Virus record (IMG/VR): IMGVR_UViG_3300035070_003918
Location: 1,462 to 65,461 of that record
Length of the DNA stretch: 64,000 nt
Reading direction: 5' to 3' (one strand)
Source of the DNA: a virus
Lineage: Duplodnaviria; Caudoviricetes
Below the pieces are notes generated by a model. That model had not been told where the DNA came from and ran no database searches. It was given only the letters and a program-made list of their open reading frames with translations. Below are positions 271 through 24,237 of the stretch, piece by piece. Numbering within the stretch: the first letter of the stretch is position 1; each line of letters starts with the position of its first letter. The position numbers and the translations under genes are program-made.

Positions 271-680
271 TCCCGACTCTTCCGTCTGCGCCCGCACCGA
301 GGATGCATCGTAGGCACCTTGCCCATCCGATGCGACGGCAACACCGGTGCCCCGCACTCGAGGCACGCTCGGCCGCGCGCACGCTTCGCCCTTCGCTCGT
401 CCGCAGCTACGAGGCACCTTGCTCGGTGCTCCGCGTACAGCACGGGATCCGCCCTGCGCTCGGCTGCTCTCCGTCGAGCCCGAGCCAGCACATGCTCGTG
501 CCCGACGTCGCCGCGTCCAACGGTCTTCGCCCGCTCCTTGTTCCACCACCATTGAAGGATCCACGCGACCTCCCGGATCATGTACTCGTGTTGAGCATCG
601 TCGAACAGCTCGACGATCTCTTGCTGCCTTGCCTCGTCCCTCGTCCACGGCCTCAGCACATCGTCAATGGGACGAAGCAC
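153..680 (-). CDS. Hypothetical basic protein with CxxC
   Basis: Directly downstream of csf3; CLECG motif; start uncertain. Confidence 0.45.
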   Translation of the reverse strand: MLRPIDDVLRPWTRDEARQQEIVELFDDAQHEYMIREVAWILQWWWNKERAKTVGRGDVGHEHVLARARRRAAERRADPVLYAEHRARCLVAADERRAKRARGRACLECGAPVLPSHRMGKVPTMHPRCGRRRKSREWWRRKKEREAVGSSRPTPCSDGASTSTVVRRRSLRSTT

Positions 681-1312
681 GGCTGCTCCTCATGCCTGCG
701 CCAGTACGGGTAGGTGATGCACGACATCCCGCGGTCCGCATCCGCTGAGACGCCGCTCACGTCATCGGGCAGGGGACGCAGAGGCATCCCATCGCGCAGC
801 ACCGGGAACCCCAGCCACGGCGCCACCTCTGCCACCTCCCATTGCCTCACCGCGCCGAGCCCCACCGCGCGCTTCTTGCCGACGTACGAGACGAGCCCAA
901 GCAGCGACTCGACCTCGGCTCGTTCCCCAACGCACCACCACGTCACGACGTCGTCGACCGCGTGGAACGTGGCCAGCGGGATCCGGTAGCTCTTCGTCAG
1001 CCCTGCCGTGATGTTGATCCGCCGCAACTTCGGCCCGGCCATGACCTGAGCCTCCGTCGTCGGGAAGCGACGATTGAGCCACCGCAACTCGGTCTCATCG
1101 ATCGCGCAGTGCCCGGCGCTCGCGAGGTGGAACCGCCCACACTCCGACCGCGCAACAGGGATCTCGATGGGCACTACCTCGCGCCGCGTGAGCGCCGGTT
1201 GCACCCCGTCGCGCATGGCCACGGCGTACGCGAGCAGGGCGTCCAGCATCACCGGCCGGTCCGGCATACACAGCGCCCCTCGGATATGCGCGCGCACCTC
1301 GAGCGGTCTCAT
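653..1312 (-). CDS. csf3: Type IV CRISPR Cas5-like RAMP (Csf3)
   Basis: ATG at 1312 overlaps the csf2 stop (ATGA); LDALLAYA N-terminal motif, G-loop YVGKKRAVGLGAV, RPLP and PYW motifs. Confidence 0.88.
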   Translation of the reverse strand: MRPLEVRAHIRGALCMPDRPVMLDALLAYAVAMRDGVQPALTRREVVPIEIPVARSECGRFHLASAGHCAIDETELRWLNRRFPTTEAQVMAGPKLRRINITAGLTKSYRIPLATFHAVDDVVTWWCVGERAEVESLLGLVSYVGKKRAVGLGAVRQWEVAEVAPWLGFPVLRDGMPLRPLPDDVSGVSADADRGMSCITYPYWRRHEEQPCFVPLTMC

Positions 1313-2334
1313 GCGTCGACCGACTTTAGGAAGTCCACGATGCGGCTCCTTCGGGCCTCCACGTGGCTCCTGAAGAGAGCCCCCATGCTCGGAGCGAGCG
1401 CCGTCGGGTCGGCGTCCGTCACCGCCTCTCGAGGCCGCGCAAGCTCGAGCCCCCACCCCTTCACGGCACGCATCCGACCGTGCCCCGTGCCACGCTTGCC
1501 TCCGACCACTGCGTTGCCGAGGAACGCGGCGCACGACACGTGCAGCGTGTCGATCTCGAGCGGTGTGTAGCAGTTCGCCTGCACCGCCCAGAAGAAGAGC
1601 GACCCCTGCGCCACGCGCTCGAAACGGCGCGGCATCATGCTCGACTTCTCCTTGTCCTTCTCCACGTGCTCGGCTGCGACCGACGCGCGCTCGTGCGCAG
1701 CGAGGCGATTCGTGGCCTTCACCTGCTCTCCGTCCGTGAGTAGCTTTCGCTTCTCGGGGCTCATGGTCGGATCCATCCTGACGCGCTGCTCCTCTTCGAT
1801 GTGCTCTCTCGACCCGGCCAGCGCGCCATAGCGATCCTCAGACCATGCCCGCGCACGCTCGGTGATGAAGCCTTGCGTCTCCTGACAGATGAGCGTGGCA
1901 TCCTCCACCGAGAGGCGCCCTGGCACGATTCGGTTCGTCGCGCAGCCTCCCAGCAGCGCCATGCTGGGCACGAGCTCGCAAAGCTCGCGGTACGCATCCA
2001 GGTTGACCGTGCCCGCCCCGTCGCCGCCGGACACCGCGCCCCCCGCGAACAGCAGGCGCAACGCAGCCTCCGAAAGCTGCGGGTTATCGACCATTCCGAG
2101 CGCATCCAAGAGCGCGTAGGCCGACGCCTCGCGCATCCCGTGGCGCATTGTGTCCGCTGTCACGATCGGCACGAAGGCCCACCCGTCGCGCTGACGGATC
2201 TTCCGCCGCATCGAGATCGACTCGTTGCCGATGTTCTCCGAGTGGTGCGCGATCGGGGTGTCGGCCTCGAGCACGAACTCGTATCGGATCCTCGTCAGCG
2301 TCTGCTTGCTCTCCGTCGTCGTTCCGTCACCCAT
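1309..2334 (-). CDS. csf2: Type IV CRISPR Cas7-like backbone RAMP (Csf2)
   Basis: TPIAH, VPIVTADTMRHGMRE, LLFAGG, PSMALLGG, C-terminal G-loop VGGKRGTGHGR. Confidence 0.92.
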   Translation of the reverse strand: MGDGTTTESKQTLTRIRYEFVLEADTPIAHHSENIGNESISMRRKIRQRDGWAFVPIVTADTMRHGMREASAYALLDALGMVDNPQLSEAALRLLFAGGAVSGGDGAGTVNLDAYRELCELVPSMALLGGCATNRIVPGRLSVEDATLICQETQGFITERARAWSEDRYGALAGSREHIEEEQRVRMDPTMSPEKRKLLTDGEQVKATNRLAAHERASVAAEHVEKDKEKSSMMPRRFERVAQGSLFFWAVQANCYTPLEIDTLHVSCAAFLGNAVVGGKRGTGHGRMRAVKGWGLELARPREAVTDADPTALAPSMGALFRSHVEARRSRIVDFLKSVDA

Positions 2335-2704
2335 GGGCCGCCTCCTGTCGTGCGTCTCTTCGGTCCTCTGCGATCTTTCGCGCCATCGCGAGCAGCAACG
2401 TCAGGTCACGCTCCACGACGTCGAGGCACACGCGCTGCCCCGTCTCTCGCGCCTCGTGGCTCAGCGCCAACAGCGCCGAAGAGGCCGAGCTGCTCAACGA
2501 TGGGAGTTGCAGCCCTCGGCACAACATCGTCACCCACTCGTCCGCTGTCGATGCTCTCCGCGCTGCGCTCAGGCTCCGGTTCTGCAACTGGTCCCAGTGC
2601 TTCAACGGGCTTGCCCCGTTCCTCAGGTACGCCGCTCGGATCTCGAGCAACATCTCCACCAGGACCGTCCTCAGTCGCTCTCTTTGCTCTTCGCTTGCCG
2701 CCAC
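2327..2704 (-). CDS. cas11: Type IV-B small subunit (Cas11-like)
   Basis: 125-aa helical protein between csf1 and csf2; its end overlaps the csf2 start. Confidence 0.75.
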   Translation of the reverse strand: MAASEEQRERLRTVLVEMLLEIRAAYLRNGASPLKHWDQLQNRSLSAARRASTADEWVTMLCRGLQLPSLSSSASSALLALSHEARETGQRVCLDVVERDLTLLLAMARKIAEDRRDARQEAAHG

Positions 2705-3467
2705 TCGCCGCCTCCTTCTTGGTCTTCTTCGCGTCCTTCTCGGCCGTCATGCGAGCGGCCACCTGCTCCTCGTTGCGCTGCGACAGCCACAACGCGAGCG
2801 CGAACCAATCCCCACCGCGTAGCCGTCCGTGGCGTGACTCGAACGCCTCGATCTGCGCGCGGCACATGCCCCACGCCCTCGGCGTGTAGTCGCCGCGCTC
2901 GATCTCGTCCTTCGTCGCGCCAGCGGTAAGCAGCGCCGACAGGTCGTCGACGATGGCCCACCCGGCAGCGCTCGGCAGCGTCAAGTTGCGCTCCTCGAAT
3001 CGCACGCGCCCGCGAGTCGTCCCCGCTGGGTTCACGGTCGCGTACGGGAGCACGTGCTTCTGTCCGCTGTCAGCGATGGCCGCAAACCACGGCCCTCGCT
3101 TCGGTTCGCGCAAGAAGGCCAGGATGAGCGGCTTCTCACCCTTGCTCGCCACCACATGCCCGCGACCGTCGTACAGGTGAGAGAAGTTCGACCATCGCGG
3201 CCCCTCTTTCTTCCCCGGTGCAGGCGGCTTCCCGGGGACCGGCGAGTAGCGGGCGCGGACGAAGGCGCAGCACACGCACGCGTGCGCAGACTCGGGCGAT
3301 CGGAACGATGTCTGATCGGTCATCGTCGGTCCGATGAACTCACCGAGCGGCACCCCTCGCGTCGACTCCCCACCGCAGATCGCGCACGGCTCTCGGTCGT
3401 GGTCGACCGCGCGCTCGTCATCGACTCCGTCAAGGCGAGAGCACACCTCCTGTACCGCCGACTTCAC
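2406..3467 (-). CDS. csf1: Type IV large subunit (Csf1/Cas8-like)
   Basis: Zn-finger CAICG...CVCC, SGQKHVLP motif; GTG at 3467 follows a GAGGAGG RBS (alternative GTG at 3602). Confidence 0.82.
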   Translation of the reverse strand: MKSAVQEVCSRLDGVDDERAVDHDREPCAICGGESTRGVPLGEFIGPTMTDQTSFRSPESAHACVCCAFVRARYSPVPGKPPAPGKKEGPRWSNFSHLYDGRGHVVASKGEKPLILAFLREPKRGPWFAAIADSGQKHVLPYATVNPAGTTRGRVRFEERNLTLPSAAGWAIVDDLSALLTAGATKDEIERGDYTPRAWGMCRAQIEAFESRHGRLRGGDWFALALWLSQRNEEQVAARMTAEKDAKKTKKEAASGGKRRAKRATEDGPGGDVARDPSGVPEERGKPVEALGPVAEPEPERSAESIDSGRVGDDVVPRAATPIVEQLGLFGAVGAEPRGARDGAARVPRRRGA

Positions 3468-3598
3468 GCTGCCCTCCTCGGGTCGATCTGCGGGTACGGC
3501 AGCCCCTCCGGCATGTGCCTCCGCAGCCGCCGATCGAGCGCCCGCGGTCGCGAGAGGCAGTGAGCCAAGAATAGCGGCGATGCGGTCGATCGGGCGGG

Positions 3599-5314
3599 TC
3601 ACGCGGCCCTCCTCGCAAGCTGCTCGAGGTACGCCTCGGCCAGCTTCAGCACGTGATCTGGCGCGGTCGTGAGCTGCTCGAGCAGTGGCGCATCGGGATC
3701 GCGCACACGCTCGACCTGGCCGCGCTTCAGGCCGAGGACGTCGGCGATGATCGGGTCCGAGCCCGAGTCCGACACCAGCATGTAGAGCATCACCGGCTCC
3801 TTCTGCCCGTCGCGGTGGAGCCGGCCCCCGCATTGCTCCATCGCTCCAGGACTCCAGTCGAGCTCGCCGAAGACGCCCGTGCGGCAGACGTGCTGGAGGC
3901 CGTCGAGGCCCGCTCCGGCACGCAGCGACACGACGAGGACCTTGGCCTTGCCCTCCGTGAAGGCGGCAACCGAGCTGGCCTTCTGCGTCGAGCTCTCGGC
4001 GCCGGTGTAGAAGACCACGCCTAGGTCCTCCAGGGAGGACGCCCAGATCCGGTAGACCTCCTTGTGCCAGCCGAAGAGGACGACGGGTTCTCCGCTCTCC
4101 ACCAGCATGCGTACGAACCGGGCGACGAAGGGGGCCTTCGCGATGCCAGTTGCCTGCCGCAGGCGGTAGTCGAGTTCCTCGCTCGCCTTCATCTTCGCGA
4201 AGCCACCGGTGCCGCTGGTCGACAGGATGAGCCGCGCAAGCTCGGCAGCCGACTGCTCCACACGCTTCAGCTCGTCGAGGTCCGCGTCGACGTGGTGCAT
4301 GACCACGCTCGCGGCCGGCAGCTCACGACCGACATCCGATCGCGTGCGGCGGAGCATGAGCCCGCTCTCTCGCAGGTAGGTGCCGAAAGCGCGCGGGTCT
4401 TTGATCTTCGCCTTCCGCTCGTCGAAGGACGAGGTGCACCATTCCGTCCTGAACTCTTCCTTCTCGCCGAGCTCGGTCGGCGCGAGCACGCTGAGGACCG
4501 ACCAGAACTCGATCCCGTAGTTGTAGATGGGCGTCGCGGTGAGCCCGAGCCGGTACTCGGCCTGCTCGGCGATCGATTTGGCCGCGGCGTACTTCTCCGA
4601 GACGCTCCTCCCGGTACCGACCCGCAGCTCCTGAGCCTCGTCGAACACGACGCTCCGCACGCGTCCGGCGAGGACGTCCGACCACCCGGCGAGCTTGTGG
4701 TAGTTCGAGATGATCACGTCGGGGAACCCGTCGAAGAGCGCTCCCTGCCCTGGCTTGTCGATCGTCAGCGGGTACGGCTTGGCGCCCTTCAGGACGTGGA
4801 CGTGGAGCCCGGGCGCGAAGCGGGCGAGTTCGCGCTTCCACTGCTCTGGCAGGTGGGTCAGCGTGACGACCAGCGCCGGCCGTGTCTCTGGCTCGACGAG
4901 TCCGCAGATCGCCGACGCGGTCTTCCCTACGCCCAGGTCGTCGGCCAGGAGGAGCGAGCGCCGGCGAAGCCACATCTCGGCGGCGATCTTCTGGTACTCC
5001 CGGGCGGGCACCGCGAGCTCGAAGGCTCGGGGCGCCGAGCTGCCCGCCATCAGCGCGGCCACTTCGCGCGCGACGTGCTGGTGGTGCTTGGAGCGCGCGA
5101 CGAGGTGGTCCCGGTCCGAGAACTCGAGCGGGAAGCGCTGGGAGAACCAATCGAGCTCCCGGCACACCTCAGGCGTATCCCTGAGGTGCAGCTCCTTCGT
5201 CTTGCCCTTCGCGAGACGCCCGAAGACGCGCTTCATCCGCATCAGGACGTGCGGCGGCGCCGTCACGACCCACTGCCCGCCGACGAGGCGCGCCTCACCC
5301 ATGGCGGCGCTCAA
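3599..5314 (-). CDS. SNF2-family SF2 helicase
   Basis: LLADDLGVGKT, VFDEAQ, LTATP, GLDGLQ, QCGGRLHRDGQ. Confidence 0.92.
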   Translation of the reverse strand: MSAAMGEARLVGGQWVVTAPPHVLMRMKRVFGRLAKGKTKELHLRDTPEVCRELDWFSQRFPLEFSDRDHLVARSKHHQHVAREVAALMAGSSAPRAFELAVPAREYQKIAAEMWLRRRSLLLADDLGVGKTASAICGLVEPETRPALVVTLTHLPEQWKRELARFAPGLHVHVLKGAKPYPLTIDKPGQGALFDGFPDVIISNYHKLAGWSDVLAGRVRSVVFDEAQELRVGTGRSVSEKYAAAKSIAEQAEYRLGLTATPIYNYGIEFWSVLSVLAPTELGEKEEFRTEWCTSSFDERKAKIKDPRAFGTYLRESGLMLRRTRSDVGRELPAASVVMHHVDADLDELKRVEQSAAELARLILSTSGTGGFAKMKASEELDYRLRQATGIAKAPFVARFVRMLVESGEPVVLFGWHKEVYRIWASSLEDLGVVFYTGAESSTQKASSVAAFTEGKAKVLVVSLRAGAGLDGLQHVCRTGVFGELDWSPGAMEQCGGRLHRDGQKEPVMLYMLVSDSGSDPIIADVLGLKRGQVERVRDPDAPLLEQLTTAPDHVLKLAEAYLEQLARRAA

Positions 5315-16764: not shown

Positions 16765-16793
16765 AAGGTAGCGCTAGCGCTAGCGCTAGTCAA
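16765..16793 (-). promoter_or_regulatory. Leftward promoter (PL-like) with an operator in the spacer
   Basis: Minus strand TTGACT-17 nt-TACCTT; the spacer is the CTAGCG repeat palindrome. Confidence 0.8.
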
Positions 16794-17848: not shown

Positions 17849-18459
17849 GGCTCGATCTCGACCGTGGCAGCGACGAACGAGCTCGCCGGGATCTCCGCCC
17901 CACCGATGATGGCGTTGGCCGTCGGCCCGATGTCGATGCAATCCGCCCCCGCCTTCGTGTACGTGGTGCCCGCGTACGGGCCCGCGACCGGGAACACGCG
18001 CACCGAGTCCCAACACGAGCCCGTCTGGGTCAGCAAGTGCGTTGGCAGCCCGCACGTGCCGTTGCTCGTGCCCACCGGGATCGTGCACGCCGCGTCGGCC
18101 CAGATCGTCGCGAACGCGTAGTTGACCGGCAGGCATCGCTGCTGGCCGTCGGACGCGCCACGCCACGCGCAGTCGATCCCGAGCTGCGAGTCGTAAAGCC
18201 CAGACGGAGTACGCGACCCGTCCGCGCCCACGAGCGTCTTGGCCTTGATCCGCTCCCCGCTCTCGAAGCCGCCGCCCGGGGTGCTCCCGCCGGTCGAGCT
18301 CGATCCGCCAGCATCCCCGCCGCCGGTCGCGCCCTCTCCGCCGTTCCCGCCCATCGAGTTCGCGGTGCTCGCCCCGGTTCCTCCGCTCGGGTCGGGCCCG
18401 ATCTCGTCCGAGCAACCTGCCAGCACCACCACCAACCCCACCATCGCCCAGCTCTTCAT
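17845..18459 (-). CDS. Lipoprotein with Gly-rich linker and Cys-rich domain
   Basis: Lipobox LAGC after a hydrophobic stretch; ESGERIKA...DGQQRCLP. Confidence 0.8.
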   Translation of the reverse strand: MKSWAMVGLVVVLAGCSDEIGPDPSGGTGASTANSMGGNGGEGATGGGDAGGSSSTGGSTPGGGFESGERIKAKTLVGADGSRTPSGLYDSQLGIDCAWRGASDGQQRCLPVNYAFATIWADAACTIPVGTSNGTCGLPTHLLTQTGSCWDSVRVFPVAGPYAGTTYTKAGADCIDIGPTANAIIGGAEIPASSFVAATVEIEP

Positions 18460-19025
18460 CGCGCCCCTCGCCTCTTTCCTGGCTTCTTCGCAGCCGCACG
18501 CGCGGCCTTTGCCTCATCGATCACGCTCTCGATTGTCCTGGTGTCTCCGACCGGCTCCGGCTCCGTCGATGGCGGAGACCCCTGAGGAAGACCGATCAAG
18601 ATCCGAAGCGCAAAGCTGGCAGCGTCGAAGAGGATCTCCTTGCTGATGCTCGTCGCTCCGACCGCGTCCAGCGCCCTCACGCCGGCCTCAAGCACGTGCT
18701 CAGGGAACCCGCGAGCCACCGCAGCGCGCGCGGCCTCGAAGCCGTCGAGCCGAGCCACGCGGGTGGTGGCGATCAACTCTCCGTCGAAGATCGCGGCCGG
18801 ATCGTAGCCGCCGAGCGCTGCCAGTCGCACCACGCACCTCGGGCCAACCCCGTGCCGTCCGTTGACGAACTTCCCGAAGTTGGTCTCGTGCACCTCGCCG
18901 AGCTCGGCCGCGAGCGAGCGCTTCGTGCGCCCGTCCACGAGCAGACCAAGAGCCACCGTGCGCGCGGCGTCCACCACCTTGGCCGGAAGCTTGGTCTTCG
19001 GTTCCGAAGCCATCTCGCGAGACAT
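18456..19025 (-). CDS. CI-like repressor (N-terminal HTH)
   Basis: TKRSLAAELG...FGKFVNG HTH-like motif; divergent from the Cro-like gene. Confidence 0.65.
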   Translation of the reverse strand: MSREMASEPKTKLPAKVVDAARTVALGLLVDGRTKRSLAAELGEVHETNFGKFVNGRHGVGPRCVVRLAALGGYDPAAIFDGELIATTRVARLDGFEAARAAVARGFPEHVLEAGVRALDAVGATSISKEILFDAASFALRILIGLPQGSPPSTEPEPVGDTRTIESVIDEAKAARAAAKKPGKRRGAR

Positions 19026-19052
19026 CCTACACCCCGTCTACGTCGCTCCAGC

Positions 19053-19118
19053 GCGGGACAGCGGTGTCCCGCACTTGACGCGACTAGCGCTAGCGCTAGT
19101 ATGGTGTCCCATGGGACA
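19053..19118 (+). promoter_or_regulatory. Rightward promoter (PR-like) and operator cluster
   Basis: TTGACG (19075)-16 nt-TAGTAT; perfect palindrome ACTAGCGCTAGCGCTAGT at 19083-19100; GGGACA/TGTCCC inverted repeats at 19053-19072 and 19105-19118. Confidence 0.8.
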
Positions 19119-19347
19119 GGTCACGAAGGGAGCGGCCATGCTCGGCGCATGGCTGCTCAAGAATGAGCGCACCAACCGCTGGCTCGCCGAAGAACTCGGG
19201 GTCGCCGAGTCGCAGGTCGGCAGGTGGCTGAGCGGCATGTGGAGGCCGCGTCAAGAGACGCTGCTGGCCATCGAGTCGATCACCGGGATCCCGGCGTCCG
19301 CGTGGCTCGACGAGCGTAAGCCTCTCAGGACGAGACGGGCCGCGTGA
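19111..19347 (+). CDS. Cro-like HTH (XRE family) protein
   Basis: WLAEELGVAESQVGRWLSG...P...LAIESITGIPASAW. Confidence 0.88.
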   Translation: MGQVTKGAAMLGAWLLKNERTNRWLAEELGVAESQVGRWLSGMWRPRQETLLAIESITGIPASAWLDERKPLRTRRAA

Positions 19348-19784
19348 GCGTCACCATCGACAGCGTCGCCCGTGGCCACGGTGGTCTCAGCATCACCTGC
19401 CACACGTCGCTCACGAGCCCGCGAGCGGACACGTGCGGTCCAGACGATGCGCTGTCCAAGCGCAGCTTCCCGGGTGTCGTGCAGGAGGTGGCGCGCGCTC
19501 TCTCGCTGGGAGTGGCGCTCTCGTCGCGCTCTCACTCGGTCGGCAGGTACCACGAGGCCACCTACTCGGGGCCTCCTCGCTGGGCGTGTATCGACCGCAC
19601 CGGCGCTGTCGTTCCCTGGCTCGAGGTCGAGGAACACTGCACGAGCCTCTACTCGCGCGAGCGCGTCGAGCGGCAGGACTGGTCGACCTTCGGCGCCGCT
19701 ATGGCCTTCGTCTGCGCTGTCGGTCGTGAGACCGCCCTGCGCGCTGTGGCTCGGCTGCACATCTCCTCTCTCGTCGCGAGGTGA
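19344..19784 (+). CDS. Hypothetical protein
   Basis: GTGA-coupled to the Cro-like gene. Confidence 0.5.
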   Translation: MSVTIDSVARGHGGLSITCHTSLTSPRADTCGPDDALSKRSFPGVVQEVARALSLGVALSSRSHSVGRYHEATYSGPPRWACIDRTGAVVPWLEVEEHCTSLYSRERVERQDWSTFGAAMAFVCAVGRETALRAVARLHISSLVAR

Positions 19785-19787
19785 CCC

Positions 19788-20087
19788 ATGGACCGCCCCG
19801 GCATCAGCAAGTGCAGCCCGAAGCGCGCTCAGGCGCATCAGAATCTCACGGAGTGGCTCGGGGAGTGGTGCGCCGAGAACGGCGTGTCCGTCCGCGAACT
19901 CGCTGGGGCGCTGGGCCTGACCTCGTCCGTCGCCGCCAAGAAGCTCTCTGGTGAGGCCTCGGTGGCGGGTATCGATCTTGTCCTGCTCTACCAATGGGCG
20001 GAGCGTCGCGGGGACAAGTTCATTCTCTCGTTTCGGGATGACGTGTGCCGCGGTGTTCGCGGCGATGACCTTCTTGCTCATGGGTGA
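19788..20087 (+). CDS. HTH protein (CII-like position)
   Basis: SVRELAGALGLTSSVAAKKLSGE. Confidence 0.7.
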   Translation: MDRPGISKCSPKRAQAHQNLTEWLGEWCAENGVSVRELAGALGLTSSVAAKKLSGEASVAGIDLVLLYQWAERRGDKFILSFRDDVCRGVRGDDLLAHG

Positions 20088-20130
20088 CAGCATGCGAATG
20101 GGGCGGACTCAGATCGATACGGGCTCAGCG

Positions 20131-20178
20131 GTTCAGCGATCAGTTCAGAGATCAGCACAGCGATCAGTTCAGCGAACA
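20131..20178 (+). repeat. Four tandem 12-nt repeats (consensus GTTCAGCGATCA)
   Basis: GTTCAGCGATCA GTTCAGAGATCA GCACAGCGATCA GTTCAGCGAACA, inside short ORF 20092..20310. Confidence 0.8.
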
Positions 20179-20309
20179 CACAAGATCGCCGCGCAATTCG
20201 ACCTGAACACCGGCGCTCGCGGGTGGACCATGGTCGCCGACTGCGACGTCCACCCCGACCGGCCGATCGGTCGGTGCCCCACGGGCCTTGGGTACGAGGT
20301 GCGCTCGTG

Positions 20310-20465
20310 ATGCACCTGACGCTGTACCACGTGGCTCGAGCCAAGCCGGCGAGCCGAAGGCGTCTCGCGCGTGCGCTCGGCCTCCGCGCGAACGCAACGA
20401 TCGCGCAGATCGTCCAGGCCGCCAATGCGCACATCGCGCCGACGCGCGGGGGCGGGTGGTCGTGA
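20310..20465 (+). CDS. Small basic protein
   Basis: TGATG coupling. Confidence 0.45.
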   Translation: MHLTLYHVARAKPASRRRLARALGLRANATIAQIVQAANAHIAPTRGGGWS

Positions 20466-20623
20466 CCGCCTGCCTCTACTTCGGCGCGCTCATGGTCGGC
20501 GCCATTCTCGCGCACCACGGGTCACCTTGGTTGGCCTTCGCGCTCGGGTGCGTCGTGCTCGTGACTCACGTGCTCTGTCGGTTGATCGATGTGCTGGATC
20601 CGGTGGAGGTCGACGATGAGTGA
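20462..20623 (+). CDS. Small membrane protein
   Basis: Two hydrophobic segments; GTGA coupling. Confidence 0.5.
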   Translation: MTACLYFGALMVGAILAHHGSPWLAFALGCVVLVTHVLCRLIDVLDPVEVDDE

Positions 20624-21053
20624 GGACAACGAGGACGGGGCGGACGTCGGCCAGCTCGAAGGGCTTCTGCCGATGGCGCCTATCAGCATCGCTCGGCTTG
20701 CTGAGTCGGTGGGCTCCGCTCCAGAGTCGAAGAACTTCCGGCGTGGCGTCTGGCAGGCCATCGAAGCCTACCGATCGCGAACCGGCATTCACCTCGTGCA
20801 GCGCGACGGGATGATCGAGGCGGTCACTCCCGAGGAGCAACTACGCGAGGCGAAGCGTCGGTTCGAGACGGCGCGCATCAGGATGCGACGCGGAGCCGAA
20901 ATCGCTAGCGGGTCAGCGACCCGCGATCCATCAATGGTCGCGAAGGCAGAGCGCCTTCTGGACCGCGAAGCGACGCGAGAGCCGACGTTGGCCAATGAGG
21001 CGCGTGAACTGCGCGCGGCCAACCTTCGCAAGCTCTTGCTCGGAAAGACTTAG
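20616..21053 (+). CDS. Hypothetical protein directly upstream of GGH-NN array 1
   Basis: GGAGG RBS; 145 aa; possible winged helix plus coiled coil. Confidence 0.7.
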   Translation: MSEDNEDGADVGQLEGLLPMAPISIARLAESVGSAPESKNFRRGVWQAIEAYRSRTGIHLVQRDGMIEAVTPEEQLREAKRRFETARIRMRRGAEIASGSATRDPSMVAKAERLLDREATREPTLANEARELRAANLRKLLLGKT

Positions 21054-21063
21054 GCAGGTCATT

Positions 21064-21148
21064 GGCGTGGCACTTCGCGGCAGGGACGTGCTCGGCACGG
21101 ATGGGCGTGGACCGGTTTGGCTTGGCGAGGCATGGACCCTTCAATGGG
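21064..21148 (+). repeat. Phased (GGH-NN)15 array 1 plus terminal hairpin; candidate guide ncRNA
   Basis: GGCGT GGCAC ttCGC GGCAG GGACG tGCTC GGCAC GGATG GGCGT GGACC GGTTT GGCTT GGCGA GGCAT GGACC, then CCC-TTCAAT-GGG. Confidence 0.85.
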
Positions 21149-21162
21149 CACTGGGAGAGACC

Positions 21163-21765
21163 ATGAAGATCATGAAGTTCAGGGTACGAATCGACAGCGA
21201 GCGACCCATCATCATCCAGAGCGATCGGCTGGTCGATCCACTCGACCCGATGAGCATCGAGAAGAGGCGGCTAGCCAAGCACAAGGACAAGGCGAGCGAG
21301 GCCTTCCAGGCAGACATTGGCAGGATCGAGTGGTTCGGCGCGCTCTACCTGGACGACGACTGCAAGCCGAGGCTCGCGATCCCGTGCGACAACATCTTGC
21401 GCGCGATGCGCGACGCCGCTGCGCGAGAGAAGCTCGGTGAGACGGTGAAGCGCGAGGTCACCATCGATCCTCCGCTGATCGACTTCCTGGACCACGGTGG
21501 CCCAAAGGATCTCGAGGCGATGTATGCCGACCCGAGGTTCGTTCTGCGCAAGTCGGTCGCTCAGCAGAAGGCGCGCGTGATGCGCGTACGCCCGCGTCTG
21601 CCCGTGTGGGCGCTCGAGTTCACCATGACCGTCGGTGGCGCACAGACGCTGACCGCGGACGACGTGAAGCGGATCCTGACGAACGCCGGCATGGTTGGGA
21701 TCGGCACGTGGCGACCTCGCTATGGTCACTTCAAGGTGACCAAGTTTGAGAAGGCCAAGGACTAG
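21163..21765 (+). CDS. Stand-alone RAMP/Cas7-like protein (200 aa)
   Basis: N-terminal strand FRVRIDSERPII, IPCDNILRAMRDAA, RVRPRLPVWALEF, G-loop AGMVGIGTWRPRYGHF; GGGAGAG RBS. Confidence 0.82.
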   Translation: MKIMKFRVRIDSERPIIIQSDRLVDPLDPMSIEKRRLAKHKDKASEAFQADIGRIEWFGALYLDDDCKPRLAIPCDNILRAMRDAAAREKLGETVKREVTIDPPLIDFLDHGGPKDLEAMYADPRFVLRKSVAQQKARVMRVRPRLPVWALEFTMTVGGAQTLTADDVKRILTNAGMVGIGTWRPRYGHFKVTKFEKAKD

Positions 21766-21779
21766 AAGTTTCGGCTCTG

Positions 21780-21877
21780 GGCTCGGCCGGGCGCGGCACG
21801 GCACGGCAGGGCGGGGCACGGAGCGGCCCGGCGGGGAGAGGCACAGCAAGGCAAGGCAAGGTCCCTTTCTACAGGGA
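21780..21877 (+). repeat. Phased (GGH-NN)17 array 2 plus terminal hairpin; candidate guide ncRNA
   Basis: GGCTC GGCCG GGCGC GGCAC GGCAC GGCAG GGCGG GGCAC GGAGC GGCCC GGCGG GGAGA GGCAC aGCAA GGCAA GGCAA GGTCC, then TCCCT-TTCTAC-AGGGA. Confidence 0.9.
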
Positions 21878-21888
21878 AGGTTTCGCGA

Positions 21889-22044
21889 ATGACTGACTTC
21901 GGCTGGTCTCTCCCATCGGTCCGCGAGCGGGCGCGCGAGTGCCAGCGGGTCGAGGTCATCAATGGGTCGCCGGTGCTGCTCGTCTTCGCGCTGCTCATCG
22001 GGGCGGCGCTGGGGTGCGTGTGTGGGGTTTGGATCAAAGGGTGA
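21889..22044 (+). CDS. Small single-TM protein (51 aa)
   Basis: Own translation MTDFGWSL...VLLVFALLIGAALGCVCGVWIKG. Confidence 0.45.
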   Translation: MTDFGWSLPSVRERARECQRVEVINGSPVLLVFALLIGAALGCVCGVWIKG

Positions 22045-22052
22045 GGTGAAGG

Positions 22053-22286
22053 ATGAGGCCGTACTTCCGAAAGTTGCCGCCGATCGTCGAGGTCCCGAAG
22101 GAGGCCCACGACGGGTACCACGTCGTCGTGAGCGGGAAGGTTGTGGCGTCGTCGTGGTGTCATGACTGCCACGCCGGGACCTGCGACTGCCTGCTGACGA
22201 TGGCGGCTCGAGCTCGACACCTCGGGGTCGGCGCCACCGTCCAGGGTCCGCTCGGGCGCGACCTCATCAAGCGGAGCGCCGCGTGA
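22053..22286 (+). CDS. Small Cys-containing protein
   Basis: CHDC...CDC; RBS present. Confidence 0.5.
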   Translation: MRPYFRKLPPIVEVPKEAHDGYHVVVSGKVVASSWCHDCHAGTCDCLLTMAARARHLGVGATVQGPLGRDLIKRSAA

Positions 22287-22678
22287 GCCCCACGGACGTT
22301 CTTCGGGCGGCTGCTGCGGCGATCCGAGCGCTGCCCGACCGTGACCTGCTCGAGCTCGCGCTGCGGGCGGATGGGCCGACGGAGCCGACGCCGTCGCAAC
22401 CGGCCGTGGCGTCGGCCCCTCCCACGGCCGCGCTCCGGCGGGAGGTCGCGACGAGCACCAAGCGCCCTACGCGGGCGGGCACGAGCAACCAGGAGTTCGT
22501 TGCACGCGCCCTCAGCGTCCTGCTGTCGAAGGCGGAGCCGGTGAGCTACGGAGCGGTGTCCAAGGCATCGGGCCTGTCCCAGCCTTCGACCCACCGCGCG
22601 CTCCAGACGCTCGTCGCGCTCGGCAAGGCGACGATGCGAAAGCAGGGTCACCGCTCGCTGTACGAGGCCAGGCGATGA
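22283..22678 (+). CDS. Winged-HTH DNA-binding protein
   Basis: VSYGAVSKASGLSQPSTHRALQTLVALG. Confidence 0.75.
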   Translation: MSPTDVLRAAAAAIRALPDRDLLELALRADGPTEPTPSQPAVASAPPTAALRREVATSTKRPTRAGTSNQEFVARALSVLLSKAEPVSYGAVSKASGLSQPSTHRALQTLVALGKATMRKQGHRSLYEARR

Positions 22679-23025
22679 AGCTGCAGGTCTCGTCGCCGGC
22701 CAGGACTCAGCCCATTCCGCCGACGCGCACGCTGCCGGTCATTCCGCACGACGTGGTGCCGACCATGCGCCCGCCGCTCGAGGTGACCAAGGTCTCTCGG
22801 CTGACCGACCGCTTCGTCTGCACCCGCTACGGCGGCCCCTGCGTCATCACGGCCGAGACGTGCATCAAGCGCCAGCGCGCCGTGCTCGCGCTGGACGACG
22901 ACCGGACTTCGACCGGTGGGTCCAAGACCTTCGGCTATGGCGGCAGCCCCACGGCCTCCGCCCAGTTCTACAACTGCAAGAAGTGCGACGACGGAAACCG
23001 CGTCGCGAGCAAGGTGAACTCGTGA
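22675..23025 (+). CDS. Hypothetical Cys-containing protein
   Basis: Coupled ORF. Confidence 0.55.
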   Translation: MKLQVSSPARTQPIPPTRTLPVIPHDVVPTMRPPLEVTKVSRLTDRFVCTRYGGPCVITAETCIKRQRAVLALDDDRTSTGGSKTFGYGGSPTASAQFYNCKKCDDGNRVASKVNS

Positions 23026-23294
23026 GCGCAACCAACTACTTCAAGACGTATTCGCCGTTCGGTCCGACCCACGGCGTCTTCCCCTTTGTCGACGGCGACT
23101 CGTCGTCGATCGAGACGGCGTGGTCCGCGGTCCTCGAGTGCAAGGGCCTGGCAGACCAGATGCGCTCGGGTCGTCGCGACGAGGACACCAGCTCCGACCG
23201 CGAGAAGCACGTCGTCCTCAGCCGGGTCGTGTCGTGCTGGACGAAGCCGAAGCTGTCGGGCCCGTGGTCTAACGTCGCGGCGGTGGCGTCATGA
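23022..23294 (+). CDS. Hypothetical protein
   Basis: GTGA-coupled. Confidence 0.5.
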   Translation: MSATNYFKTYSPFGPTHGVFPFVDGDSSSIETAWSAVLECKGLADQMRSGRRDEDTSSDREKHVVLSRVVSCWTKPKLSGPWSNVAAVAS

Positions 23295-23653
23295 TGCCGC
23301 CGCTCGACCGGGTCTGGGACGACGCCGACATGGCTCAGGCGATCCATCACGTCGCGCGCGAAGGATGGCGCGGCCCATCCTCGGCGCTGCTGTCTCGCAT
23401 CACGGGGTGGTCCGAGGAGGACGCTGCGCTCGAGCTCGAGCAGGAGGACCCCACCGAGAGGGTGTGCGCGTTCCTCTCGCTACTCGCGGTCCACTGCCAC
23501 CCGGACGCGCCGCTGATGCGCGTGACGCCCAAGCTCATCGCCGAGCTGACGGGGTGGCACCACGTCCGCGTCGAGCGCGCGCTCGTGGAGGCCGTGAGCC
23601 GAGGGCGCCGCGCGCTGTTTAGGATGGTGCCTGCCGAGGGGAGGCCCGCGTGA
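23291..23653 (+). CDS. Hypothetical protein (possible HTH)
   Basis: TPKLIAELTGWHHVRVERAL. Confidence 0.55.
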   Translation: MMPPLDRVWDDADMAQAIHHVAREGWRGPSSALLSRITGWSEEDAALELEQEDPTERVCAFLSLLAVHCHPDAPLMRVTPKLIAELTGWHHVRVERALVEAVSRGRRALFRMVPAEGRPA

Positions 23654-24237
23654 GCGCCGCATTCGACCTGGTCGCGTCGGCGCCAACGCCGCAGCGCGTG
23701 GAGCGCGCAGAGCTCGACTACTACCCAACGCCTGCGTGGTGCGTGGATGCGATCAAGCCGTTCCTATGTCCCGGGCGCTCAGTGCTCGACCCGGCCTGCG
23801 GGCAGGGGGAGTTGCTGATTCACTTCGGGGTGTCCGGCGAGACATCGCTGCTCGGCATTGAGCTGGACGGTTTGCGAGCCCTCGCGGCTGAGCGCATCGC
23901 CACCCAGCGCGTCATCGAAGCAGACGCCCTCGCCGTTGACTGGCCCAAGGTCGACCTCGTGATCTGCAACCCGCCCTTCTCGCTCTCGCTCGAGTTCGTC
24001 GAGAAGTCTCTCCAGCAGCAGCTGCCTCACACGACGCACGCCTTCCTGCTGCGGCTGTCGTTCCTCGAGTCGCGCGAGCGACGCGCGCTTCACAAGCTGC
24101 ATCCGAGCGACGTCTACGTCCTCTCCGAGCGGCCGAAGTTCAGGCCCAACCGTCACGGCAAGATGGCCACCGACTCGATCACATGCGCGTGGTTCGTGTG
24201 GGGTCCTGGGCGCGGCGGAAGGTGGAGCGTCCTGTGA
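23650..24237 (+). CDS. Orphan amino-DNA methyltransferase (N6-adenine type)
   Basis: DYYPTP, VLDPACGQG, ICNPPFS. Confidence 0.9.
   Translation: MSAAFDLVASAPTPQRVERAELDYYPTPAWCVDAIKPFLCPGRSVLDPACGQGELLIHFGVSGETSLLGIELDGLRALAAERIATQRVIEADALAVDWPKVDLVICNPPFSLSLEFVEKSLQQQLPHTTHAFLLRLSFLESRERRALHKLHPSDVYVLSERPKFRPNRHGKMATDSITCAWFVWGPGRGGRWSVL

What the first reader, a model, noticed from the sequence alone, without database searches (positions are those of the whole stretch)
21064..21877. Solo RAMP/Cas7-like gene bracketed by two phased (GGH-NN)n non-coding arrays: candidate non-CRISPR RNA-guided system
Seen: a 200-aa ORF (21163-21765) with RAMP hallmarks (IP..NI..AMR.AA helix, C-terminal G-loop GIGTWRPRYGHF) and no adjacent cas genes. 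Both flanking intergenic gaps are filled by 5-nt-periodic arrays on the same strand, with 15 and 17 units and no phase break. Of 32 units, 29 begin GG, position 3 is C/A/T and never G, and positions 4-5 vary freely. Established: Cas7-family RAMPs polymerise on RNA with a fixed nucleotide footprint per subunit. Inference: each protomer binds one constant GGH and displays the NN, so the array is a guide whose target is spelled by the dinucleotides (non-contiguous pairing). With no nuclease nearby, it would probably act by binding or repression, e.g. against rival phages. From memory this matches recently reported phage VIPR-type (GGY/NN repeat RNA plus RAMP) systems; I cannot verify that here.
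Basis: partly seen in the sequence, partly recalled or inferred. Interest (0 to 1): 0.96.

Follow-up and report, generated by a model that had tools for sequence, protein, structure and literature searches.

The report
Phage VIPR RNA-guided silencing cassette
This phage carries a small Cas7-like protein gene flanked by two five-base-repeat guide-RNA genes, a further example of the VIPR RNA-guided DNA-silencing systems first described in 2026 preprints rather than a new kind of system.

Summary
Two same-strand 5-nt arrays (21064-21138, 15 units; 21780-21864, 17 units) flank a 200-aa ORF. 29 of 32 units start GG and position 3 is never G. 100 simulated 64-kb sequences gave at most 9 in-phase GG, against 13 and 16 here.

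The protein is a direct sequence homologue of the solved SUSP1 Vipr protein (PDB 36pp, E 8.6e-18, full length). Its model (pLDDT 97) matches CRISPR Cas7/Csm3 RAMPs. The window is a 65-kb tailed-phage record. The scan has already found VIPR on other DNA.

Local details:
- Metagenome contigs show the cassette 20605-21888 (145-aa gene, array, vipr, array) missing from relatives.
- In one near-identical variant the variable part of array 2 is swapped while its 3' end is kept.
- The usual vap1-like partner gene is absent; the upstream 145-aa gene is a candidate accessory.
- The base-1 contact residues are Q/T, not H/D.

I found no target and no RNA data. Verdict: new member of a known kind, modest interest.

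The parts
20605..21888 (+). Whole VIPR cassette, as delimited by presence/absence in related metagenome contigs
   Evidence: table 5. Contigs in runs X1 and X3 join 20604->21889, one in X3 joins 20615->21889, and one in X2 joins 20609->21890 with 235 other letters between. Relatives therefore lack exactly this block.
20616..21053 (+). 145-aa gene of unknown family; candidate accessory (vap-like) gene of the cassette
   Evidence: No Pfam, PHROG or NCBIfam match. Only 4 homologues in 5.8 billion clusters. It is syntenic directly upstream of array+vipr in L082. It lies inside the indel block. Its ATG overlaps the previous gene's stop. Relatedness to vap1-like phrog_5926 is not shown (hhalign E 0.059, probability 0.9%).
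21064..21138 (+). vrRNA array 1: 15 GGH-NN units. The last two units (GGCAT, GGACC) belong to the conserved 3' end.
21139..21162 (+). Tail of vrRNA 1: possible 3-bp hairpin (CCC 21137-21139 / GGG 21146-21148), followed by the vipr ribosome-binding site GGGAGAG
   Evidence: The same tail sequence follows the downstream array of L118. The hairpin is not the minimum-energy fold, and the fold energy is no better than shuffles (z 0.32).
21163..21765 (+). vipr gene (200 aa; the start may be 21172)
   Evidence: PDB 36pp_D 'SUSP1 Vipr protein', E 8.6e-18, query 6-193 against chain 4-188 of 202. phrog_4652, E 3.2e-30. AF2 model pLDDT 97.1, pTM 0.90. Foldseek top hits are Csm3, Cas7 and Cmr RAMPs at probability 1.0.
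21780..21864 (+). vrRNA array 2: 17 GGH-NN units. The last four (GGCAA x3, GGTCC) look like a conserved 3' end.
   Evidence: In a ~99%-identical contig of run X2, positions 21767-21849 are replaced by 71 other letters and identity resumes at 21850.
21865..21888 (+). Tail of vrRNA 2: 5-bp hairpin (TCCCT 21862-21866 / AGGGA 21873-21877), followed by the ribosome-binding site of the next gene (ATG 21889)
   Evidence: The MFE structure contains this hairpin, but z is 0.49 against shuffles, so the energy is not significant.

Best explanation
The locus is a VIPR (Viral Interference Programmable Repeat) system carried in the early rightward operon of a temperate-looking tailed phage.

By homology with SUSP1 VIPR, the two arrays would be made into ~100-nt vrRNAs. 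Vipr protomers would bind one per 5-nt unit and hold the constant GG(C/T/A) bases. The exposed NN dinucleotides would pair with double-stranded DNA that reads NN-x-NN-x (one base skipped per unit), and binding would block transcription of the target.

The target is most likely a competing phage, satellite or other mobile element. The cassette holds no nuclease, so silencing is more likely than cutting.

Shown here: protein homology and fold, array architecture, the conserved scaffold with differing NN in relatives, phage context, and the cassette behaving as a unit.

Inferred only: transcription and processing, filament formation, the 1-nt skip rule for this clade, the target, and any role for the 145-aa gene.
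For: 1. Protein. Full-length phmmer match to the solved 'SUSP1 Vipr protein' (36pp_D, E 8.6e-18, 68 bits). phrog_4652, E 3.2e-30. A profile of the clade finds 3231 representative proteins at E<=1e-3. tblastn finds homologues in 127 phage records, 126 of them covering >=80% of the query, including Felixounavirus.

2. Fold. The AF2 model from 131 sequences has pLDDT 97.1 and pTM 0.90. Foldseek against PDB gives 95 matches at E<=0.001, and every listed top row is a CRISPR RAMP complex (type III Csm3/Cmr, type VII Cas7) with TM about 0.5.

3. RNA-contact residues, mapped from the alignment and the residues named in 10.64898/2026.04.26.720927 section 5. R138->R143 is invariant in 131 of 131 sequences. 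W178->W183 and R179->R184 are conserved. K33->R35.

4. Arrays. 15 and 17 units on the strand of vipr, far beyond chance.

5. Positive control. All 7 annotated phages with a Vipr homologue that I examined have 9-17-unit GG(C/T)-NN arrays on the vipr strand.

6. Relatives. L082 (63% identical Vipr) has a 16-unit array in the same upstream position. L118 (69% identical over its C-terminal fragment) has a 13-unit downstream array. Both have different NN but the same GGCAA/GGACY end.

7. A ~99%-identical metagenome contig has the variable part of array 2 replaced and the 3' end kept.

8. No self-target under the 1-nt skip rule: best 18 of 30 and 22 of 34, against shuffled-order control mean maxima of 19.0 and 21.6. 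The paper reports the same absence for its systems.

9. Virus record with terminase, portal, head, sheath and tape-measure genes.
Against: The two residues that hydrogen-bond base G1 in SUSP1 (H17, D177) are Q19 and T182 here. D177A abolishes SUSP1 silencing, so the recognition chemistry is not identical.

Six of 32 units are GGA, although the SUSP1 pocket is described as excluding purines at position 3.

The vap1-like partner gene (phrog_5926), which directly follows vipr in the 3 of 3 phages I tested by PHROG, is absent from the whole 65-kb record.

The 3' tails are short hairpins whose energies are no better than shuffles (z 0.3-1.0), unlike the SUSP1 pseudoknot.

No sigma-70-like promoter or intrinsic terminator lies next to the arrays.

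No natural target reached the published 80% NN-match level. The best extensions of exact 8-unit seeds in IMG/VR were 22 of 30 and 24 of 34, and 1.3 Mb of held loci gave nothing above shuffled controls.
Confidence: 0.92

Rival explanations
1. It is a VIPR-derived cassette that no longer silences foreign DNA. It could be a decaying relic, or its RNAs could serve as decoys or regulators of the phage's own early operon. Both arrays sit in 5' leaders directly before a ribosome-binding site, so Vipr binding to the mRNA could control translation of vipr and of the next gene.
For: No target found. Each array ends 24 nt before a start codon, and the possible tail hairpin lies next to the RBS. No own promoter or terminator. 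The G1-contact residue that is essential in SUSP1 (D177) is T here.
Against: The Q19/T182 pair is a recurrent, co-varying state (20 of 131 sequences, against 89 with H/D) and is invariant across the 15-sequence clade. That looks like conservation rather than decay. The vipr ORF is intact and highly conserved (51 invariant columns). NN strings differ between relatives while the scaffold is kept, and one array is swapped in a near-identical variant; this is the pattern expected for guides under diversifying use. My target search was narrow: exact 8-unit seeds, one collection.
Confidence: 0.05
2. It is a nuclease-linked or host-defence type of VIPR (like the published types III-V) whose effector lies elsewhere in the phage. 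One candidate is the SNF2 helicase/nuclease genes next to the type IV-like Csf module. On this reading the outcome would be target destruction rather than repression.
For: The same phage carries csf1/csf2/csf3-like genes and an SNF2 helicase at 653-5314. The paper says types III-V carry nucleases or helicases as vap genes.
Against: Those genes are 15-20 kb away on the opposite strand, in the other early operon. The indel block that defines the cassette contains only the 145-aa gene and vipr. The 145-aa protein has no nuclease or helicase match.
Confidence: 0.02
3. The periodic tracts are chance or slippage products of GC-rich DNA, unrelated to the protein.
For: The genome is 68% G+C. TRF sees only part of array 2, as a period-10/20 repeat.
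Against: 100 simulations never exceeded 9 in-phase GG, against 13 and 16 observed. Neighbouring units rarely repeat. The same architecture recurs next to homologues in 7 of 7 annotated phages examined and in L082 and L118.
Confidence: 0.01

Closest known systems
VIPR systems; experimental reference is type II of Escherichia phage SUSP1 and a Pseudomonas fulva prophage (bioRxiv 10.64898/2026.04.26.720920; structures in 10.64898/2026.04.26.720927; PDB 36pp)
   Same: About 200-aa Vipr protein, homologous over its full length, with a RAMP fold. GG-pyrimidine-NN pentamer arrays on the vipr strand, one upstream and one or more downstream, each about 100 nt with a conserved 3' end. Phage-borne. No CRISPR array. 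No self-target. Thumb arginine and G-loop W-R conserved.
   Different: About 28% identity to SUSP1-like Vipr. No vap1-like gene (phrog_5926) after vipr or anywhere in the record; instead an unrelated-looking 145-aa gene lies upstream of array 1. G1-contact residues are Q/T rather than H/D. 19% of units (6 of 32) are GGA. The tail is a short hairpin, not a demonstrated pseudoknot. There is only one downstream vrRNA. The type (I-VII) cannot be assigned, because the defining tree and tables are in supplements that I did not open.
Class 1 CRISPR backbone RAMPs (Cas7 family: Csm3, Cmr4, type VII Cas7)
   Same: RRM core, G-loop and thumb hairpin, and one protomer per fixed number of guide nucleotides. 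They are the best structural matches (E about 1e-5, TM about 0.5).
   Different: 10-14% identity only. No CRISPR repeat-spacer array, no Cas6/Cas5/large subunit next to it, and no adaptation genes. 5-nt rather than 6-nt periodicity. The guide is interrupted.
VIPR-null phages with solo vrRNAs, and vipr-vap1 deletions in SUSP1 relatives (bioRxiv 10.64898/2026.10.15.759431, section 8)
   Same: Presence/absence polymorphism of the VIPR module among near-identical phages with sharp breakpoints (compared).
   Different: In this window's relatives the arrays go with the genes (joint 20604->21889), so no solo vrRNA is left behind.
Non-canonical VIPR repeat variants (NNNGG, YNNNG, NNNNG in 10.64898/2026.04.26.720920 Methods; GAC/NN, CAC/NN, WGT/NN, TGH/NN in 10.64898/2026.10.21.760802)
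   Same: The constant trinucleotide can drift while the 5-nt period and the Vipr partner stay.
   Different: This locus is close to canonical: GG is kept and only position 3 is relaxed to H.

Membership tests
VIPR system | Vipr protein homologous to the characterised Vipr proteins | tested here: met
   phmmer against PDB sequences: 36pp_D 'SUSP1 Vipr protein', E 8.6e-18, query 6-193 against chain 4-188 of 202. 127 phage records hold homologues, including Felixounavirus.
VIPR system | Minimal RAMP fold: single RRM core, G-loop, thumb | tested here: met
   Model pLDDT 97.1 with beta-alpha-beta-beta-alpha-beta order, a hairpin at 127-146 carrying R143, and a G-loop at 179-188. Foldseek top hits are Csm3, Cas7 and Cmr chains at probability 1.0. 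Thumb and G-loop were assigned by alignment to SUSP1, not by superposition on 36pp.
VIPR system | Residues that read the GGY bases in SUSP1 (H17, D177, R138, W178, R179; pocket E71, M72, C173) | tested here: inconclusive
   R143, W183 and R184 are conserved. H17->Q19 and D177->T182 differ. The pocket is D76, N77, V178. Q/T co-vary in 20 of 131 family members, against 89 with H/D. That suggests an alternative working pocket, but this is inference.
VIPR system | Tandem YNNGG (= GGY-NN) repeats, at least 4 units (9-16 typical), in the intergenic regions flanking vipr | tested here: met
   15 and 17 units on the vipr strand; 29 of 32 start GG; position 3 is C 24, T 2, A 6. The 6 GGA units depart from Y.
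VIPR system | Constant bases conserved and NN hypervariable among related loci | tested here: met
   L082 and L118 arrays: same scaffold, different NN. The variable part of array 2 is replaced in a ~99%-identical contig.
VIPR system | Invariable structured 3' tail after the repeat tract | tested here: inconclusive
   The end GGCA(A/T)-GG(A/T)C(C/T)-CT is conserved in 4 of 4 arrays. Short hairpins are possible, but their energies are not better than shuffles (z 0.32-1.04). No Rfam match.
VIPR system | Accessory vap gene next to vipr | tested here: not met
   vap1-like phrog_5926 matched the gene after vipr in 3 of 3 phages tested. It has 0 hits in this record at E<=1. The upstream 145-aa gene is a candidate but is not demonstrably related. 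The paper says loci 'typically' have a vap, so this is not a strict requirement.
VIPR system | Viral or proviral context | tested here: met
   IMG/VR virus record of 65,461 bp, CheckV 80% complete. Terminase, portal, major head, tail sheath, tape measure and RecT genes.
VIPR system | vrRNAs expressed and co-purifying with Vipr | not testable with these tools
   No RNA holder was listed among the runs. See Tried and rejected.
VIPR system | Targets that match the NN string with a 1-nt skip (>=80% NN), and none in the system's own genome | tested here: inconclusive
   No self-target, which meets that half. No foreign target was found in a narrow search.
CRISPR-Cas (class 1) | Repeat-spacer array and a multi-gene cas operon around the Cas7 | tested here: not met
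   No repeat of CRISPR-like period in the window. Neighbours of vipr have no Cas families. The csf genes at 653-3833 form a separate module.

The most novel reading that the evidence does not exclude
This clade would be a distinct VIPR subtype not among the published seven. Its features would be:
- a compact mobile cassette (accessory gene, vrRNA, vipr, vrRNA) whose accessory is a new 145-aa protein placed upstream instead of a vap1-6 gene;
- a Q/T pocket replacing the H/D pair that reads base 1, which tolerates A at position 3;
- guides exchanged by replacing the variable block while a fixed 3' end is kept.

A bolder extension: in the same phage the array-less type IV-like Csf complex and the VIPR RNAs are de-repressed together and may cooperate.
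Probability: 0.2. Interest if true: 0.5.

Novelty: new member of a known kind. Interest (0 to 1): 0.3.

Why it matters
It adds a high-GC environmental phage, with no close cultured relative, to the VIPR family. It also provides natural-variation evidence, from metagenome contigs, that the cassette moves as a unit and that a guide block can be swapped while its 3' end stays fixed.

The Q/T replacement of the base-1 contact pair, and the parallel S/T clade with CGC-NN repeats, hint at a protein-RNA recognition code that could be read from sequence. That would help in engineering Vipr variants with other scaffolds.

None of this changes the picture drawn by the 2026 preprints, and a specialist would not be surprised by the locus itself.

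Tried and rejected
Structure from the single sequence failed (pLDDT 33). The model from the alignment replaced it.

Close relatives. Two scans of genome contigs found none. The strict GG scan of 80 distant viral loci found an array in only 1 of 80. A relaxed period-5 scan showed that those clades use other scaffolds.

Accessory gene. BLASTP of the 145-aa protein against the gene after vipr in three phages gave E 0.14, 1.6 and 12. hhalign of the two families gave E 0.059 and probability 0.9%, so relatedness is not shown. The Atlas look-up gave only unnamed viral clusters and weak winged-helix look-alikes at TM 0.35-0.36, which is a lead only. Complex prediction of Vipr with the 145-aa protein gave 'no answer' (score 0.01). 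That is no evidence either way.

Targets.
- Own window under 0-3-nt skip rules: nothing above shuffled controls.
- One exact 8-unit seed per guide in viral contigs gave 14 and 20 hits. The best full-guide matches were 22 of 30 and 24 of 34, none reaching 80%.
- Guides of L082 and L118 against the window, and window guides against 201 held loci (1.3 Mb): nothing above controls.
- Attempts to fetch relatives of this phage through RecT and the helicase found none.
- The nearest cultured phage portal is 34% identical, so the host stays unknown.

Expression. No RNA holder was listed for the stretch. All four runs laid were DNA contigs.

Other searches. Rfam gave no match at E<=1 in 19000-24000. The promoter/terminator scan gave one promoter-like site at 19075-19102 and no terminator.

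VIPR type I-VII could not be assigned. They may also show whether this clade, GGA units or the 145-aa gene are already catalogued.
Full report
**What is there.**
The region reads, on the + strand:
- a 145-aa ORF (20616-21053);
- 10 nt of spacer;
- 15 pentamer units (21064-21138);
- a 24-nt tail containing the ribosome-binding site;
- a 200-aa ORF (21163-21765);
- 14 nt of spacer;
- 17 pentamer units (21780-21864);
- a 24-nt tail;
- the ATG of a 51-aa ORF (21889).

Thirteen of 15 and 16 of 17 units begin GG. Position 3 is C 24, A 6, T 2, G 0, and positions 4-5 are unconstrained. The next best in-phase GG run in the 64-kb window, on either strand, has 6. One hundred Markov-1 simulations of the window gave maxima of 5-9.

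**The protein.**
Pfam and NCBIfam have no family for it. PHROGs places it in phrog_4652, function unknown (E 3.2e-30).

Against the sequences of all PDB chains it has one hit: 36pp_D, 'SUSP1 Vipr protein', E 8.6e-18, aligned over residues 6-193 against 4-188 of 202.

A word-indexed search found 14 relatives at 50-95% identity. A profile of these found 3231 cluster representatives at E<=1e-3. tblastn found the family in 127 phage records: Escherichia/Felixounavirus 77, Salmonella 17, and also Gordonia, Mycobacterium and Pseudomonas.

The single-sequence fold failed (pLDDT 33). With a 131-sequence alignment the model has pLDDT 97.1 and pTM 0.90. Foldseek against PDB returned 95 matches at E<=0.001. 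Every listed top row is a CRISPR RAMP backbone subunit (Csm3, type VII Cas7, Cmr) with TM about 0.5 and 10-14% identity. So the protein is a RAMP and, specifically, a Vipr.

**The literature.**
The paper search found four bioRxiv preprints.
- 10.64898/2026.04.26.720920: I read the abstract, all of Results, the Discussion, Methods sections 18, 20 and 27, and passages found by term.
- 10.64898/2026.04.26.720927: I read the abstract, sections 5 and 6, and passages.
- 10.64898/2026.10.15.759431: I read the abstract and section 8.
- 10.64898/2026.10.21.760802: I read passages only.

They describe VIPR as follows. A ~20-kDa Vipr RAMP is encoded mostly in phages and proviruses. ~100-nt vrRNAs consist of 9-16 GGY-NN units followed by a constant tail. 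One protomer binds each unit, and the NN dinucleotides pair with dsDNA while skipping one target base per unit. The result is transcriptional silencing of competing phages and satellites. Seven types are defined, with accessory vap1-6 genes.

I did not open the supplements. They hold the type tree and locus lists, so I cannot say whether this clade is already listed.

**Fit to the family.**
As a positive control, I scanned seven annotated phages that carry a homologue: Andreotti, LESphi2, MakoManhole, Trine, LittleE, Medea1 and prophiBWHA-1. All seven have 9-17-unit GG(C/T)-NN arrays on the vipr strand, beside the gene.

Two closer relatives came from metagenome contigs.
- L082 (63% identical, gene cut by the contig end) has a 16-unit array in the same upstream position. 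A homologue of the 145-aa gene precedes it.
- L118 (69% identical over its C-terminal fragment) has a 13-unit array directly after the stop codon. Its tail is nearly identical to that of the window's array 1.

Over the 61 units of this clade, position 3 is C 46, A 12, T 3, G 0. The NN strings differ between loci, while the last two units and the next two bases are conserved in 4 of 4 arrays: GGCA(A/T)-GG(A/T)C(C/T)-CT.

Short hairpins can form at each tail, but their energies do not beat shuffled controls (z 0.32-1.04). Rfam has no match. I therefore call the tail conserved in sequence and leave its structure unproven.

**Natural variation.**
The stretch occurs in runoff, wastewater, activated-sludge and freshwater metagenomes. 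Laying the contigs of four runs on 20500-22500 gave two informative results.

First, contigs in X1 and X3 join 20604 to 21889, one in X3 joins 20615 to 21889, and one in X2 joins 20609 to 21890 with 235 other letters between. Relatives of this phage therefore lack exactly the block made of the 145-aa gene, array 1, vipr and array 2, while keeping both flanks. This defines the cassette. It also places the 145-aa gene inside it and the downstream 51-aa, 77-aa and winged-helix genes outside it.

Second, a 1588-nt contig in X2 matches 20537-21766 with 13 differences. It then replaces 21767-21849 with 71 other letters and resumes at 21850. The variable part of array 2 is exchanged and its 3' units and tail are kept. 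Many loose ends at 21780-21832 are other GGC-periodic tracts. These are contigs, not reads, and one variant is one observation.

**Differences from the reference system.**
In the seven annotated phages a gene follows vipr closely (overlapping it or within 15 nt). The three I tested all match phrog_5926. This record has no phrog_5926 match at E<=1.

The 145-aa protein has only four homologues and no family. It is not significantly similar to the phrog_5926 group.

I mapped the SUSP1 contacts named in the structure preprint through the alignment.
- R138->R143, invariant in 131 of 131 sequences.
- W178->W183 and R179->R184 conserved.
- K33->R35.
- H17->Q19 and D177->T182: these differ.
- Pocket residues E71, M72 and C173 -> D76, N77 and V178.

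In the 131-sequence alignment the base-1 pair is H/D in 89 sequences and Q/T in 20. Eleven of those 20 are the window protein and its own clade, which I put into the alignment. D/N at the pocket is the commonest state (43 of 131), so I do not attribute the GGA units to it. Internal GGA units also occur at low frequency in other phages.

**Context.**
The window is 64 kb of a 65,461-bp virus record, 80% complete by CheckV. It encodes large terminase, portal, protease/head, major head, tail sheath, tape measure, RecT and helicases.

The cassette sits about 2 kb downstream of a divergent repressor/Cro-like region. The only sigma-70-like site found lies there, at 19075-19102. DNA methyltransferase, RuvC-like and helicase genes follow the cassette. 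No promoter or terminator flanks the arrays, so they are probably cut out of the early operon transcript; that is inference.

**Targets.**
No site in the window matches either guide under the 1-nt skip rule better than shuffled-order controls. This agrees with the published absence of self-targets.

A seed-and-extend search of IMG/VR, with one exact 8-unit seed per guide, returned 14 and 20 loci. None reached 80% NN match. Cross-tests between this locus and L082 and L118, and against 1.3 Mb of held loci, were negative.

Close relatives of the phage could not be fetched and the host is unknown. The target therefore remains open. The search was narrow, so it does not count against function.

**Verdict.**
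It is a new member of a known kind. The scan has reported VIPR loci on other DNA several times.

The locus-specific points are modest but testable:
- a different candidate accessory gene;
- the Q/T base-1 pocket;
- relaxed position 3;
- cassette presence/absence among relatives;
- guide replacement with a fixed 3' end.

Noticed in passing
window 653-5314 (- strand): Type IV-like CRISPR effector genes with no array. ORFs 653-1534, 1309-2334 and 2406-3833 match NCBIfam Csf3 (E 8.4e-17), Csf2 (5.7e-09) and Csf1 (5.3e-06), all below the curated cut-offs. An SNF2-family helicase lies at 3599-5314 (Pfam E 5e-24). TRF finds no CRISPR-like repeat anywhere in the window. One phage therefore carries two RAMP-based modules.
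   Followed up: partly
loci L002, L083-L086, L088, L090, L092, L093, L095, L103-L105, L109, L111, L115, L116, L144, L145: In distant Vipr homologues (25-32% identity) whose residue at the H17-equivalent position is S (with T at the D177 equivalent), the flanking period-5 arrays read CGC-NN on the vipr strand. This holds for 18 of the 19 S/T loci whose best 45-nt window scored >=5.7 bits. Several of these loci are the same contig held in two collections. The residue at a base-1 contact position thus tracks the identity of base 1. The loci were all retrieved with a GTWRPR pattern, so T182 is fixed by the search.
   Followed up: partly
loci L087, L088, L104, L105, L144, L145: Some marine homologues show GGC-NN runs on the strand opposite to vipr. 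Because GGC and GCC are reverse complements, the scaffold alone does not fix the transcribed strand in those clades.
   Followed up: no
window 16769-16789 and about 19075-19102: A (TAGCGC)3.5 tandem repeat and the only sigma-70-like promoter in 18000-24000 lie at the two edges of the divergent repressor region.
   Followed up: no
window 20131-20175: A 12-nt tandem repeat, 3.8 copies (GTTCAGCGATCA; TRF score 69), just upstream of the early genes that precede the cassette. Function unknown.
   Followed up: no
window 21111: In the X2 variant the A of unit 10 of array 1 (GGACC) is read as G, making position 3 a G. This is the only such case seen, from a single contig of depth 6.8.
   Followed up: no
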